64,000 nucleotides of DNA from an uncultured delta proteobacterium (lineage in GTDB: Bacteria; Myxococcota_A; Polyangia; Polyangiales; Polyangiaceae). Shown here piece after piece: positions 3,001 to 39,000 of this stretch. The stretch's first letter is position 1; every line of letters begins with the position of its first letter. Location of the stretch: assembly GCA_963696385.1 (NCBI GenBank), contig CAVOKF010000007.1, forward strand, positions 160,001 to 224,000, read 5' to 3'. The position numbers are program-made.

Positions 3001-6000
3001 AGCGCCCTGAACCACTGGGGCGCAGCGCAACTCCCGCAATCCCCGAACGCGTCGCGCGTCGTCACGTCGATGCAGAGTGTCGCGCGAGTCCGCGACGCGA
3101 CCCCAGCACGACGTGCCGCTATCCATACGAGCGCAGCGCCTCGCCTCTGCCCCCTGAACCACTGGCCTGAAGTCGCCAAGCATGGTCGCGCTCTGTTGCG
3201 GCCGCGGCAACGACGTCAACGCGACGATGCTCTTGGCGTGCTCGCCAACAATCGCGACGAGTACTGGGACAAGAAGCTCGCCGCCGATACTTGGCAGGGG
3301 CCTCATCGCCGGAAAGGCCCGCCCCCTGAACCATTCTTGGACTCAGGTCAACAGCGGGGCGCGCCGGACGCTTACCGCGCGCGAACGCCGTCGGAACGAA
3401 TTTCACGGGTCTTTCCCGTGAAGACTGCCAGGTGCTCGACGCGCACTCCGAGTGGCAAGTGTATGCGGCACACGCGGTTTACGGACCGTTATGCGGCGAG
3501 CGGCGATGAGTCCACGCCGGCCTGCCCTCCACGCGTTCGGGCGCGCTCACCGAGACGTGCGGAGCGGGCACACGCCCCCCGATTTGCGGTACTCGCGCTG
3601 CACGGCCGCCACAAGGTGCCCGTCGGCCATCGGCGTCCGCTCGCCGAACGCGAGCACCTGAGCGTGGAGTACCGCGTTGCGGATCTGCCCCCCGGTTAGC
3701 TGACATCGGCTGGCAACCTCCCGAAGCAGAGGCAGCGACGCGGCGTGAGCGGGCGGCAGGTGCGTCTGCCAAAGCCGAAACCGCTCGGCGACGTCCGGTG
3801 CGTGGAAGTCGACGACGACGTCCATCCGCCGTTGGAACGCGGTATCGATGTGGTCGCCGGCGTTCGTGGTGACCACGACGATTCCCTCGAACGTCTCCAG
3901 GCGCTGCAAGAGGAAGTTCGTCTCGAGGTTGGCGTAGCGGTCCGTCGAACTCTGCACCCCCGTGCGGCGCGCGAGCAGCGCGTCCCCCTCATCGAGAAGA
4001 AGCACGACGTCGAGCTCCTCGGCGAGTTCGAACACGCGCCCGAGGTTCTTCTCGGTCTCTCCGATGTATTTGTTGACGACCGACGAGACGTCGAGTCGAT
4101 AAAGATCCTTGCCGAGTGTCGAAGCGAGGATTCTGGCCGCGAACGTCTTTCCTGTGCCGCTCGGGCCCTGAAAGAGAACGCGAAGGCCGCCGCCGACCTT
4201 CGATCCGAAGGCAGCGCCGAGGTTCTGGCCGAGCTCTTCGCGAGCGCGACAGCGGACCGTAAGCTGATCGAGCTCGCCGCGCGTCTCCGCGCTGACCGAC
4301 AGGTCCCCCCAATCGCCTCCGACATCGAGCCGCGACGCCAGCGTCTCGAGCGCCTGGCGGTGCAGAGACCGGGCGGCCAAGCGGACATCCGCAACTGTGA
4401 CGGGGGGGTCCGTCACGGGGGGCGATAGGGCACCCCTCGAGCGCTCCGCCACGCCGGGAGCGGCGCCCGCCGGTCGGCGCGCCAGGAGTGCGTACGACCG
4501 AGCCATGCGGGCCACCGTCCGAAGGTTGCCGCTCGCCATTCGAAACGCCGTAGCAAGATCGTCGACCGACTCGGCCTGCGCCGGCAGCACCGCGCGCCAG
4601 TGTTCGCGCCGCTCGGCGGGGCTCGGCAGGTCCAGCGTGATCGCAATCGCTCGCTCGACGGCGGTGCCCGTCACGCCCCCCTGTCGCCCCGTCACGACGA
4701 ATATGGGACCGGCGTACGCGCCCGGTCGCTCCAGGTCCACCGACTCTCCGGGCGCGAGGTCCAAGACGACAACCGGCACCGCACCCAGCAGCGTGCAGAG
4801 CGACCCGGCGGTGCGAAGCCGCCTCTCCTCGGGCTTGCCGATCGAGTCGATCTCGAGGACCCCGGCGCAGAGCGCGCAGGCGAGGGCACCGGCGACCGTG
4901 CGTCGGCCGTTGTGTCGTGGGCCCCGGACGATGACGCCCGCGACCTCGCTCGCGGCCAGGAGCTCCGGCAAGCGTTCGATAAGCTCTCGAGCCGCGGGCG
5001 CCAGGACGAGCGCGTCGAGCGACGTGAGCGACGAGGCCGACCGGTACCGAGCCCACGGCAGCGGCGTCTCCGATGCCTCGCCGCGCATCGCGTCCCAGAT
5101 CGGCGCCGCGACTTGCAGGCCCCACTGAGCGCGCGCTGCGTCCAGGTTCGACGTCGTGACCAGCCCGAGTTCGCCGAGCCTGCGAAGGGCCGCGCGCACG
5201 CCCGGAGTTCCGCGACGGGCCGCCCAGTCGTGGAGCAGCCCCGCCGTCGGGCGCTGCTGGCCCGCGATGCCGTGGAGCGCCTCGAAGACGAATCCGAAGC
5301 GAGCGTCCTCGTCGGCGAGGCCGATCATCGCGAGCAGGACAAGGTCGTCGATCTCCAGACCCGCTGCGCGACGGAGGTTGGCGATCGGCAACGGAACAGA
5401 GGCCCACGCCTCGAAGATCGCGATCGCCGAGAGGCAGTCGTCCCGCGTCGCGAGGCCGCTCCGGGAAAGATCCGCCGCGTAGCCCGAGAGAAAGGCGAAC
5501 TGGCGCTCGACGAGATCGCGAGAGCCGATCGTCGCGTCGAGGTGCAGAAGCAGAGAGTGAACGGCCCCGAGGAAGAAGAGGCGGAAGTGCTCTTCGGGAA
5601 GGGATACGGAAGTGGGTTTAGGCAAAACGTTCACAGTCCAAGGTCCGTGTGAGGCAGCTTGCCGTTAAAGACCAGCGCCGCAGCCGAGACATTGGAAGTG
5701 CCGTGGAGCAGATGGCTTGTTCGCGAAAGCAACAAAGCATCCACGACAACTTCTCTCGCGCCAAGCCCATACCCGAAATGGGTAGGGCGGCCGTCGTGGG
5801 ATCGACGAGCCGATGTGTGGATCACCCTGTCGCCGTAGGTTGTCTTCATTCGATCGAGAAAGCGCCCGCAGTCAGTTGCGACGAAGACCCGAAGCTCAGG
5901 TCGCGTCGAGATCTGAGCGTCTACCAAAGCCTTGTAGCGGTCGAACGAAGGAGGTATGGCCTCTCCGATTTTGTCGGTGCCCCGGTAGTGGACTCCAATC

Positions 6001-36000: not shown

Positions 36001-39000
36001 GACGCCTGCACCTTGGCCCAGAGTCTCACTCCGTTCGGTTCGAACACCGCCCACTGCGTCCCGTCGTCGATCGATCGCTCGAGGTAGGCGAAGTACCGCC
36101 GCAGGTTGACGTAGATCCAGTCGGTGTCCGAGCTGACGGTGCGCGCTCCCCAGACGAGGTACCCGCGCCCCTCGAAGAAGCGCAAGCAATTGATGCCCAG
36201 AGGGTTCAAGATGTCTTGCTGGGCCTTGTTGACGTTGACGTCGAAGCCCTGCGCGAGCGCAATGACTTCGTTGGCGGGCGCCTTGTAGACGCCTCGCGTG
36301 TTGTCGTTGTTCGCGTAGATCCCGCATATGAATCCGCTGGGCGGCAGGTAAATCGGATTGCTCGTGATCGGATCGAGCACGCGAACCCACGGGTAGTAAA
36401 GCGCGGCGTAGCTGCTGTCGAACTGACCCCGCAGCGCGCTGACCTGGTTGAGGTTCTCGCCGTTGCCGCTGTCGAGCACGGCGATCCGGTACTTCATGTT
36501 CTCGCAGTGGGCCACGAGCTCCTGCATGATCCCGAGCGCGACTCCGTAGGCCACGGAACCCGGGCCCCCGAGGTCCATTTGGTAGGTCGAGCCGGGCGCC
36601 GCGACGATCGAAATGTCCTCGATGTCCTCGAACTGAACGAGGCCGGTCTTCGGGCTCGGCACGATGTCGGTCGGATCGCCCGTTCCTTCGTAGTCCGACA
36701 AGGCGGGCAGAGCCCCGTCCGTCCCCCCCTGAAGCTGCACGGTGATCGTCCGCTGGGCCGTCGTGGAGCTGAGGGTCTGAAGCACGTTCGGCAGCGTGGC
36801 GGCGCTGCTCGGGGTGGCGGGCGACGGGTAGGCCGCAAAGAAGGCTTGCAAAAGGCCCAGGCCGTCGAGAGTTCCGTTGGGACCGGGCTGTTCGAATTTG
36901 ATGGGAAGATCCCTTCCGTAAGCTGGGTCGGGCGTGCTCGGGTTGGTTGGGTCGGGCCCGAACACGCCGACGAACGAATCGTACGCGTCGCTGGTCTGGT
37001 GCGACGGATCGAGGGCCAGATCGGTCCACGTCTGCGACGGCTGGTTGATGTCAAGCAGGGCGGTGACCGTGACCGAGAGCGTGATGACGCGGATTTCCTG
37101 ACTGGGGGAAAGCGCACCGATCGCGATCGACGCGGCCGGGCTCGCGGATGATGCGTCTTGGACGAAGAGCCAATTCTGCGCGATCGGGTCCCAGGTGGCG
37201 AGGTACGCCGGAAAGTTACTCGCGGTGGACGTGGTCGAAACGAAGCCCGGCGCCGACGAGGAGGTCGGGCGGATCATGACGACGTCGAACTCCTCGACCG
37301 ACCCCACTTGGGGCGTCCCGCTCTTGTTGAAGGAAAGTACGTTGGGGCCGACCATGAGGGTGATCTGCACCTGCATGTTCCCGTAGAGGCCCGGGTAGCG
37401 CGCGCAGAGGCTGGGACCGGTGGGCGGCGATCCGAAACCCAGCGACGCCCGAGCGAGGGTGGGGGCGGTAGCGGGATTGGAGGAAACGATTCGCGAGACG
37501 TAGAGCTGCGTGCCCCCCTGGGTGAAGAACGCCCGCGCGGCGTGCCACATGAAATTGGTAATCGACGTCGGCGGGCCGCCCGCAGCGCCGGGCTGCACCA
37601 CCTGCAACGGCTGACCGTCCCCGTAGGTGCGCTCGTAGTCATCGAGGCTGGAGATCATCTCCAGTTCGAGGTTGTAGGGGCCGTAGCGTGTGGGCCCTAT
37701 GAAGCCCGTAGTCGTCGTCCCGACGCCGGCGATGGCCTTGGTGCTCCGATAGGAGACTTCTTCGATATAGACGCCGGGAGACAGGTATTCCGCCATGAAT
37801 CACCCTCACACGCGGCCAGCCGGTTGCCGCCCGCCCGCATCAATTGCGCCGATCTTTTGCCAAAAATTCGATACGCAACGAAATATCGATTACTCGACGG
37901 ATTTCGCCGCGCCGGCTTGTTGACATTGGCCCGAACCGATGTCCACACCGATGCCCCACGACGTCCTCTCGCTATTCGAGAAACACGTCGTTTCAACTGT
38001 CGACGTTTACGACCACGCCTACTAACGACGGGGCCCAGCCCACCACACACGCGTTTGCTCTGTCAAGCGACAATCCACGGTCGGGGCCGCTTCAAAGGAT
38101 GGAACCAACGAAAGTCAACGAAGACGACCGTTTGCCCGTTCAGCCGGCGCTTTTTCGACGGGCCCTACGCGTGAAAAAATGCGCGTCACGCAAATTCAGC
38201 TGTCAACGCTTTTCCGCCCGCGAGAGGATTCCTTATGTGAAGCACGAGCCGACACATGCTCTCGACTCGTTGGGCATCCTCTTCTTACGCGGGTGGACGT
38301 CTCGCGTTCTTCCGTTGGGATTTGCGAGCGCCTGTGCAATCGTGCACCTCGACGCCGCCGTCCACGCTTGGGAGGCCGGTTGAGTCCAAAGGGGATCCGA
38401 GTTGGCGACGTATCACGCAATAGCGGCGATCGGTCAGGCGGTTCTCGGACTGCTGGAACAAGCACGCATCGGGTCTGAATTCGATGGCTGTGACTTCGAG
38501 CTCTATCAATCGTCCAACTTTCATGCACCGATGGACGAAGGATTGTCGCTTTTTCTGTACAACACCGTCGTCAGCACGGCACGACGCAACGTTCCAGGGA
38601 GGGTCTCACCCGACGGCCGAAGACACCGTCCGCCGCTCCCTCTCGACCTTTACTACCTACTCACTCCGTGGGCGAAGACGGCGACGGCGCAGCACCGACT
38701 CTTGGGCTGGGCCATGCGGGTGATCGATGATAGTGCGACGCTTCCCGCGTCGCTGCTCAACCACTATGGCCCGGAACCGGACACGTTCTGGCCGGACGAA
38801 ACGGTCACGCTCGTCAACGAGCCCATCTCGTTGCAAGACATCTACAACATCTGGGAGATCAACAAGCAGAACGTGCAGGTGTCGGTCGCCTACGTCGCAC
38901 GCGTCGTCTTCATCGATTCCACGGTCGACGATGTCCAGGTCCTTCCGGCGCAAGCTCGTTCGTTCGAGACCGCGAAGAAGGGCCAATCACGATGACGAAT

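What a model noticed while it worked through the whole genome (the two positions that open the first line are those of the whole stretch)
3547..38995. Extracellular contractile injection system with multi-domain glycosyltransferase genes built in beside the DUF4157 gene [...]
A complete eCIS operon (sheaths, tubes, spike, baseplate, AAA ATPase, Pvc16) carries two glycosyltransferases flanking its DUF4157-nuclease gene: a tandem GT2-GT2 protein with a third domain (785 aa) and a protein with a NodZ/FUT8-like domain (661 aa). The tandem-GT2 gene recurs at this position in unrelated eCIS loci, marking an eCIS subtype that glycosylates its particle or cargo or injects a glycosyltransferase.
Evidence so far: Gene order call 76; domains call 148. 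Of 80 metagenome loci of the GT2 gene, 25 have an eCIS-specific gene nearby (mostly DUF4157 just upstream on the same strand), 22 of the 38 loci of 8 kb or more; three more show only the AAA gene. Not found in 150 phylum genomes, so it is a mobile subtype. Geller 2021 supplement lists Glycos_transf_2 as depleted in eCIS overall (odds ratio 0.28; call 156; 10 files not searched); no mention in main texts searched.
(Added by a program. Inside this text positions count along the whole contig: contig position 160,001 is position 1 of the stretch shown here. "Call 12" and the like, gene names such as g00115 and contig names such as C1 are that model's own, and its searches are not shown. The text may have been shortened before it was handed on; [...] marks where a part breaks off. 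The agent that wrote the report below was given it as the finding of a first reader that could run no searches.)

Follow-up and report, generated by a model that had tools for sequence, protein, structure and literature searches.

The report
Sugar-coated bacterial injection particles
A soil bacterium's syringe-like toxin particle is encoded together with sugar-attaching enzymes, and the particle's outer proteins carry a short Ser-Pro-Pro tag that mostly comes and goes with such enzymes across many bacteria, which suggests, untested at the bench, that these particles wear a sugar coat.

Summary
The operon is a real, intact extracellular contractile injection system (Tail_P2_I baseplate type) with two soluble proteins holding five glycosyltransferase domains (GT2-GT2-GT8-like; GT-A, CBM-like, NodZ/FUT8-like). 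The link is far wider than reported: 66 of 82 loci chosen by the ATPase carry a glycosyltransferase/methyltransferase cassette, across many phyla. New here: the structural proteins are rich in Ser-Pro-Pro (GSPP 9 found, 0.4 expected), in variable loops of fibre, sheath and baseplate but not tubes or cargo. The motif follows the cassette: fibre cores hold 3.0 copies with a cassette (n=86) and 0.4 without (n=12; p=7e-6; about 10 changes of cassette state on the tree). It also marks unrelated proteins beside the same GT2 subfamily, and relatives in uncultured phages sit behind capsid genes ending in Ser-Pro (mostly one clade). Best reading (0.7): the cassette O-glycosylates the particle at these serines with a variable, often methylated glycan. 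Injected glycosyltransferase is unlikely. Corrections: the IS66 does not cut the ATPase; tandem GT2 is a minority form; the gene usually lies downstream of DUF4157. No glycan has been shown. Closest known: mycobacteriophage virion glycosylation, with a different initiating enzyme and acceptor.

The parts
38992..39870 (+). 292-aa conserved gene beside Pvc16, 2 SPP; its family is the richest in SPP in cassette-bearing systems
   Evidence: 21 SPP in 2039 residues, 7 systems
38402..38995 (+). Pvc16-like terminator/cap gene, divergent from the main operon
   Evidence: PF14065 E 8e-31
35787..37796 (-). Sheath 1 (669 aa), GSPP at residue 123
   Evidence: PF04984, PF17482; nearest solved sheaths 9ezm and 8bky
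35267..35734 (-). Tube 1, no SPP
   Evidence: PF06841
32463..35263 (-). Sheath 2; one frame break near 34335 in this assembly, inside an SPP-rich loop; the break is absent from short-read contigs of 3 of 4 runs
   Evidence: phrog_23
31996..32466 (-). Tube 2, no SPP
   Evidence: PF06841
31106..31996 (-). Conserved 296-aa gene between tube 2 and hub, no family hit
29829..30899 (-). Spike hub (VgrG N-terminal-like)
   Evidence: phrog_52; NF033848
29087..29806 (-). Spike, OB domain
   Evidence: PF04717
27375..29090 (-). Conserved 571-aa gene after the spike, 4 SPP, no family hit
26982..27371 (-). gp25 baseplate wedge
   Evidence: PF04965
24660..26974 (-). Baseplate J; two single-base breaks near 24759 and 24802 are absent from short-read contigs of 3 runs
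   Evidence: PF04865
21893..24658 (-). Tail_P2_I baseplate adaptor (921 aa), 4 SPP
   Evidence: PF09684
20522..21883 (-). Fibre gene 1 (453 aa), 4 SPP; main carrier of the motif across the family; many relatives end in collagen-like repeats
   Evidence: NF053767 E 8e-10 below cut-off
19166..20503 (-). Fibre gene 2 (445 aa), one ASPP in an insertion absent from 9 aligned relatives
16873..19155 (-). Conserved 760-aa gene, usually just before the ATPase in relatives; no family hit
15617..16834 (-). IPT/TIG-domain protein (405 aa)
   Evidence: PF01833
13196..15565 (-). 789-aa protein with N-terminal and C-terminal hydrophobic stretches (probably exported and membrane-anchored); role unknown
10823..13180 (-). 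Glycosyltransferase 1 (785 aa): two domains of the eCIS-linked GT2 subfamily plus a GT8-fold domain; acidic motifs intact; no membrane segment
7664..10810 (-). DUF4157 (eCIS core) protein with C-terminal non-specific endonuclease, probable antibacterial cargo; no immunity gene directly behind it
   Evidence: PF13699, PF13930
5631..7616 (-). Glycosyltransferase 2 (661 aa): GT-A domain, CBM-like beta-sandwich, GT-B domain like NodZ/FUT8/POFUT
3547..5634 (-). AAA ATPase, complete
   Evidence: PF00004
545..3382 (+). IS66 element with two near-identical copies elsewhere in the genome; outside the operon
40076..40552 (+). Phage-type lysozyme behind the Pvc16 unit, possibly for particle release
   Evidence: PF00959 E 4e-35

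Best explanation
The cassette is a dedicated cytoplasmic protein O-glycosylation module for the injection particle. While the particle is built, an initiating enzyme (a GT2 domain of one subfamily, or in a minority of loci an MptE/Maf-like domain) puts a first sugar on the serine of small-residue-Ser-Pro-Pro loops exposed on fibre, sheath and baseplate; further domains extend the chain (here a second GT2, a GT8-like, a GT-A and a fucosyltransferase-like domain) and in most relatives O-methyltransferases cap it. The glycan differs from locus to locus like a serotype. Shown by computation: domain content, linkage, motif excess, its place in loops, its co-variation with the cassette. Inferred: that the serine is the acceptor, which domain initiates, the sugars. 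Most inferred (about even odds): the coat keeps the released particle soluble, protease-resistant and off non-target or kin surfaces in soil.
For: GSPP is the most over-represented 4-mer in 18 window proteins: 9 against 0.4 shuffled; SPP 17 against 4.5-5.6; TPP, SP and TP not enriched. Fibre cores: SPP in 77 of 86 cassette-bearing and 3 of 12 cassette-less systems, means 3.02 and 0.42, Mann-Whitney p 6.6e-6; TP and non-Ser-PP do not differ. Cassette state changes 10 times on a tree of the other fibre gene; hand-read sister contrasts 8 lower, 0 higher, 2 tied, p 0.008. Whole operons: 8 of 8 with cassette hold 6-19 SPP (2.3-5.3 expected); 7 of 9 without hold 0-2. Motif flanks are poorly conserved (0.31 against 0.53). 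In 29 GT2-selected loci lacking this eCIS type's markers, genes just upstream hold 40 SPP in 26,409 residues, other genes 7 in 54,192. Blind check: 3 of 3 strong new hits from a class-wide draw had SPP-rich neighbours (14 in 3,223 against 4 in 18,239 residues for two of them). Cassettes hold GT2, GT4, GT8-like, GT9, GT32, O-methyltransferases, UDP-GlcNAc 2-epimerase, DegT. Phage relatives lie behind major capsid genes, 34 of 40 of which end in Ser-Pro.
Against: No glycan or activity is shown. 9 of 86 cassette-bearing fibre cores have no SPP, among them one Pyrinomonadaceae clade that keeps Pro-Pro but swaps the serine. Two cassette-less systems (L225, L229) keep 9-10 SPP and no linked cassette was found. 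The tree tool's own binary test on supported branches gave 5.3 concordant and 0.1 discordant of 8 pairs, median p 0.06, not significant. Only 12 negatives, most from incomplete genomes; 22 unresolved rows were dropped (counting 4 of them as negatives gives p 7.6e-5). The phage pattern is mostly one clade (3 changes; pairs uninformative). Serines in SPP use TCN codons in 266 of 305 cases against 1093 of 1669 elsewhere, so some copies may stem from local duplication or Pro-to-Ser steps. The window's DUF6519-type relative L001 has a fibre without SPP.
Confidence: 0.7

Rival explanations
1. The cassette glycosylates the particle, but SPP is only a marker of flexible exposed loops and the true acceptor is something else, such as threonines of the collagen-like repeats or any Ser/Thr in Pro-rich loops.
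For: Cassette-bearing systems with no SPP exist; several fibres carry GPT collagen repeats; plain SP also tracks the cassette (5.2 against 1.5); phage tails end in SP, not SPP.
Against: TP and non-Ser-PP do not track the cassette; the window's fibres have no collagen repeat; SPP follows the enzyme to unrelated proteins.
Confidence: 0.1
2. The enzymes change the producer's own surface glycan (serotype conversion), protecting it and its kin from its own particle.
For: Structural neighbours of the domains are LPS and capsule enzymes; this window's nuclease has no adjacent immunity gene; fibres of this class are thought to bind glycans (PMC12923769, passages).
Against: No flippase, polymerase or lipid-carrier enzyme among the cassette genes scanned, apart from one unresolved locus L180; many loci have ordinary immunity genes as well; it does not explain the motif in particle proteins.
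Confidence: 0.08
3. The glycosyltransferases are injected cargo that glycosylate a target-cell protein, as the Yersinia ruckeri eCIS toxin does.
For: They lie at the 3' end beside DUF4157 and the ATPase, where effectors lie (PMC8213781, passages); an eCIS glycosyltransferase toxin is known (reference title; supplement row).
Against: Cassettes are chains of several transferases with methyltransferases and sugar-supply enzymes; no DUF4157 fusion and no immunity gene follows them in the maps; DUF4157 toxins with immunity genes are already present; the motif data point to the particle.
Confidence: 0.06
4. SPP is a site for proline-directed phosphorylation or a binding motif, and the cassette merely travels with the operon.
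For: SP is a classic kinase motif (own knowledge).
Against: No kinase is a regular neighbour; the one locus with kinase and phosphatase next door (L196) lacks both cassette and motif; hitch-hiking does not predict joint loss.
Confidence: 0.06

Closest known systems
Mycobacteriophage virion glycosylation (Che8 gp108-110, Corndog gp35-38; Freeman 2023, seen only through PMC12363180, PMC12619734, PMC10877033)
   Same: Self-encoded glycosyltransferases, with a methyltransferase, that modify structural proteins of a phage-derived particle. Che8 gp108 weakly matches the GT2 subfamily (E 1.8e-9) and is 39% identical over 175 residues to a cassette methyltransferase; gp109 and gp37 match another cassette domain.
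   Different: The essential enzyme gp110/gp38 has no match in the eCIS loci at E 1e-4; Che8 and Corndog capsid and tube end in GS or DS and hold no SPP; here the candidate sites are internal loops of fibre, sheath and baseplate, and the tubes have none.
Flagellar glycosylation islands (GT2 with FkbM/AdoMet methyltransferases, PMC4875605 passages; fgt1/fgt2 with viosamine genes, PMC3927599 abstract start; Maf enzymes, recalled)
   Same: Variable island of GT2 enzymes, methyltransferases and sugar genes beside the gene of a polymerising surface protein; two alternative lead enzymes, GT2 or MptE/Maf-like.
   Different: No flagellin nearby; substrate is an injection particle; a short sequence motif is apparent.
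Tail_P2_I / eBAP3-type eCIS (PMC12923769 passages; Streptomyces and haloarchaeal sheaths are the nearest solved ones)
   Same: Gene set and order, fibre genes behind Tail_P2_I, collagen-like shafts, DUF4157 cargo.
   Different: Two sheaths, two fibre genes, and a glycosyltransferase cassette that the passages read do not mention.
Yersinia ruckeri eCIS glycosyltransferase toxin (name Afp18 recalled)
   Same: A glycosyltransferase gene in an eCIS locus.
   Different: One 2122-aa effector with a Gly_transf_sug domain; the window's enzymes are of other families and form a chain-building set.

Membership tests
eCIS | Sheath, tube, spike, gp25, baseplate J, AAA ATPase, Pvc16, DUF4157 in one locus | tested here: met
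eCIS | No capsid, terminase or T6SS membrane genes | tested here: met
   none among the window frames scanned (main frames of 188-62309, not every ORF)
eBAP3 / Tail_P2_I subtype | Tail_P2_I adaptor directly before the fibre genes | tested here: met
eBAP3 / Tail_P2_I subtype | eBAP3 anchor domain | tested here: inconclusive
   eBAP profiles not run; only CIS13 family hits below cut-off and a weak hit to the tCIS crown protein (E 0.72)
GT2 | GT-A fold, PF00535 over cut-off, acidic motifs | tested here: met
GT8 (third domain of the 785-aa protein) | PF01501 over cut-off; LgtC fold | tested here: inconclusive
   fold met, Z 18.7; Pfam E 0.022, under cut-off
GT23 NodZ/FUT8 (last domain of the 661-aa protein) | Pfam over cut-off; GT-B fucosyltransferase fold | tested here: inconclusive
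   fold met, Z 17.5 FUT8, 17.2 NodZ, tied with POFUT1 17.1; Pfam under cut-off
Che8-type virion glycosylation | gp110/gp38-type essential enzyme | tested here: not met
   no BLASTP hit at E 1e-4 in the fetched eCIS loci
Che8-type virion glycosylation | Acceptor at the C-terminus of capsid and tail tube | tested here: not met
   tubes lack the motif; sites are internal
Che8-type virion glycosylation | Glycan shown on purified particles | not testable with these tools
   needs mass spectrometry
Flagellar glycosylation island | Adjacent flagellin gene | tested here: not met
   none in the gene maps and scans
Maf/MptE-like lead enzyme (minority cassettes) | PF01973 over cut-off or solved relative | tested here: inconclusive
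   15 of 15 members hit PF01973, best E 2e-5, under cut-off; no solved relative by sequence
Injected glycosyltransferase toxin | Single large effector with Gly_transf_sug domain | tested here: not met

The most novel reading that the evidence does not exclude
A portable tag-and-enzyme pair (Ser-Pro-Pro read by one GT2 subfamily or by an MptE/Maf-like domain) is an undescribed, mobile protein O-glycosylation system. It coats most injection particles of a cross-phylum soil lineage, a second eCIS type, other unexplained protein assemblies and the capsids of uncultured phages with hypervariable methylated glycans, giving these machines serotypes that may govern kin recognition.
Probability: 0.45. 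Interest if true: 0.9.

Novelty: new variant of a known kind. Interest (0 to 1): 0.82.

Why it matters
No glycosylated contractile injection system turned up in ten full-text searches, and family-wide enrichment tests hid the link because GT2 is common everywhere. If right, most particles of a widespread soil lineage are glycoproteins, which bears on their stability, target choice and structure work. It names a short candidate acceptor motif for a cytoplasmic bacterial O-glycosylation system, testable with peptides, and cultured harmless strains with and without the cassette exist. It also predicts capsid glycosylation in a group of uncultured phages outside the actinobacteriophages.

Tried and rejected
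IS66 truncation of the ATPase: rejected. Decay of the operon: three frame breaks are absent from short-read contigs (two in 3 of 3 covering runs; one in 3 of 4, run X2 did not show the difference). Cargo as acceptor: SPP at background in DUF4157 frames. A cassette elsewhere for the two exceptions L225 and L229: not found with the GT2 profile, the L163 lead domain or flanking scans; a generic GT2-GT4 pair 11 kb from L225 sits among housekeeping genes. Annotated GenBank phages: only 4 weak generic GT2 hits. ESM Atlas for residues 1-370 of the 661-aa protein: best 0.89, viral clusters, a lead only. No RNA holder listed. Fibre and third GT domain found no solved relative by sequence. No structure of the fibre was predicted (both fold jobs went to the enzymes), so surface exposure of SPP rests on alignment variability. 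Regions for G008, G015, G024 and G058 were missed or came from the wrong contig, so those loci stay unresolved. Earlier findings were not open. No complex prediction was run.
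Full report
Observation. The minus strand from 37796 to 3547 holds sheath 1, tube 1, sheath 2, tube 2, hub, spike, gp25, baseplate J, a Tail_P2_I adaptor, two fibre genes, three accessory genes, the 785-aa glycosyltransferase, the DUF4157-nuclease, the 661-aa glycosyltransferase and the AAA ATPase; Pvc16 and a 292-aa gene are divergent. The ATPase ends with the family's C-terminal motif and the IS66 stops 165 bases beyond it. Frame breaks in sheath 2 and baseplate J are not in short-read contigs of soil runs, so the operon is probably intact.

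The enzymes. The 785-aa model (pLDDT 89) has two GT2 domains and a third domain like LgtC and GlyE of GT8 (Z 18.7 and 17.3). The 661-aa model (pLDDT 82) has a GT-A domain (Z 13.8 to CHPF), a sandwich like a domain of a GH2 glucuronidase (Z 13.8, rmsd 2.2) and a GT-B domain like FUT8, NodZ and POFUT1 (Z 17). Acidic motifs are present and neither protein has a membrane segment. Homologues show these domains shuffled with each other, with NPCBM modules and with methyltransferases.

Linkage, tested from both sides. From the enzyme: 48 of 79 genome loci, and 39 of 54 of 15 kb or more, hit an eCIS marker of the window; Pfam adds five. From the particle: of 160 loci fetched with an ATPase alignment, 82 had 8 kb or more downstream; 63 show a cassette in the locus, 3 more on the same contig, 12 end without one and 4 are unresolved. 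Of 80 loci fetched with fibre gene 2, 47 whose state was open were searched genome-wide with 3 known positives: 38 of 50 genomes match, mostly at one place downstream of the locus (one of these genomes, G012, is unpublished). Loci lacking this GT2 subfamily often carry another cassette that begins with an MptE-like domain (14 of the 63). Hosts span Acidobacteriota, Chloroflexota, Pseudomonadota, Actinomycetota, Myxococcota, Bacillota, Planctomycetota and others, yet only 1 of 251 genomes of the host's class has the fibre gene: a patchy, mobile lineage. Cassette contents vary widely: GT2, GT4, GT7, GT8-like, GT9, GT25, GT32, Methyltransf_24, FkbM, TylF, CmcI, UDP-GlcNAc 2-epimerase, DegT.

The motif. 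GSPP occurs at 0.90 per 1000 residues in the operon and 0.04 in a crude gene call of the genome. Against shuffles that keep composition, also in 30-residue blocks, GSPP is 9 against 0.4 and SPP 17 against 4.5-5.6, none of 1000 shuffles reaching it; further copies lie at the sheath 2 break and were not counted. The motif was found after looking, but is the top 4-mer (Poisson 8e-11). In relatives fibre 1 carries it in a few variable loops; Gly, Ala or Ser precede it in 191 of 305 cases. Tubes and gp25 had none in the systems counted.

Co-variation. Of 135 fibre cores, 86 had a linked cassette, 12 had none, 15 had the enzyme on another contig and 22 were unresolved and dropped. SPP averaged 3.02 and 0.42 (p 6.6e-6); TP and non-Ser-PP did not differ. 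Negatives were picked by missing enzyme hits and by Pfam of the downstream genes, though SPP counts had been seen in between. On a FastTree tree of fibre gene 2 (111 rows; L240 left out) the state changes 10 times; binary independent pairs on supported branches gave median p 0.06; sister contrasts read by hand gave 8 lower, 0 higher, 2 tied. Seventeen whole operons agree, with two clear exceptions. Against: one Pyrinomonadaceae clade keeps a large cassette but has 0-1 SPP in this fibre (its other proteins were only partly seen).

The motif follows the enzyme elsewhere. Upstream neighbours in 29 loci without this eCIS type's markers hold 12 times more SPP than other genes; 8 of 23 such loci have two or more (some are DUF6519-type eCIS or fragments). 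A class-wide draw gave three strong new hits: one DUF6519-type eCIS whose sheath has 3 SPP, and two copies of a non-eCIS unit with a collar-domain gene and 6-8 SPP. In IMG/VR, 80 loci hold relatives at 32-48% identity; in 37 the gene lies 10 to 3169 bases behind an HK97-type capsid gene; 34 of 40 distinct complete capsids end in Ser-Pro, and an unrelated capsid family ends in SPP. Capsid-selected controls (156 loci, 47 clusters) gave 9 of 12 with enzyme and 2 of 35 without, but the queries came from enzyme-linked capsids and the pattern is nearly one clade.

Mechanism. A lead domain primes SPP serines, fused or neighbouring domains extend, methyltransferases cap; this window has no methyltransferase and ends in a fucosyltransferase-like domain. 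Linkage and motif statistics are computed; acceptor, donors and purpose are inferred.

Known systems. Mycobacteriophage Che8 and Corndog share some extension and methylation parts but not the essential enzyme or acceptor. The primary paper was not held; I saw passages of PMC10877033, PMC12619734 and PMC12363180 citing it. Passages were read in PMC8894135, PMC11297309, PMC12923769, PMC8213781 and PMC4875605; PMC3927599 only as a listing. Geller 2021 supplements (12 of 15 files searched) list GT2 as depleted, and list GT2-Methyltransf_24 genes as accessory cluster 633 without comment in the passages read. Ten searches showed no report of a glycosylated eCIS or of this motif; subscription papers, bioRxiv supplements, three Geller files and the supplements of PMC12923769 were not seen and could bear on novelty.

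Verdict. A known kind of machine with a near-universal, so far unremarked glycosylation cassette and a candidate acceptor motif: new variant of a known kind, interest 0.82, mechanism confidence 0.7.

Noticed in passing
L366-L442 (IMG/VR), e.g. L410:6559-8597: Uncultured HK97-type phages carry a GT2/methyltransferase block between major capsid and head-tail genes; most capsids end in a short Ser-Pro tail, predicting capsid glycosylation outside actinobacteriophages.
   Followed up: partly
L603:10543-15569, L604:10222-15125, L064:5016-9900, L066:5477-9949, L050:969-2857: A non-eCIS unit (about 950-aa unknown protein, collar-domain protein, about 470-aa unknown protein, often after 205-aa paralogues) sits before the same GT2 cassette and is SPP-rich; found in Sphingomonadales and in the host's class; function unknown.
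   Followed up: partly
L044:5392-8637, L003:5886-7547: Unannotated SPP-rich proteins directly upstream of the GT2 subfamily, with no eCIS gene in view.
   Followed up: no
window 7616-7664: The DUF4157-nuclease has no immunity gene behind it, whereas many relatives have GAD-like/Tdi1 or SUKH genes there.
   Followed up: no
window 13196-15565: Exported, probably membrane-anchored 789-aa protein with lower GC3 (0.67) inside the operon; the nearest relative L099 has an unannotated 685-aa gene at the same place.
   Followed up: no
L160:14718-17492, L163:7473-12206: Second cassette type led by a conserved MptE/Maf-like domain, about 60% identical across phyla.
   Followed up: partly
L021:9998-20758 (Sorangium cellulosum So ce26): The GT2 pair lies between a polyketide synthase and a Tc-like toxin gene, without eCIS markers in 21 kb.
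   Followed up: no
window 40076-40552: Phage-type lysozyme behind the Pvc16 unit; a relative (L173) has a lysozyme directly before its GT2 gene.
   Followed up: no
window 44097-46767 and 56365-58677: Multicopper oxidase with TolC-like protein, and a fatty acid cis/trans isomerase; ordinary host genes.
   Followed up: no
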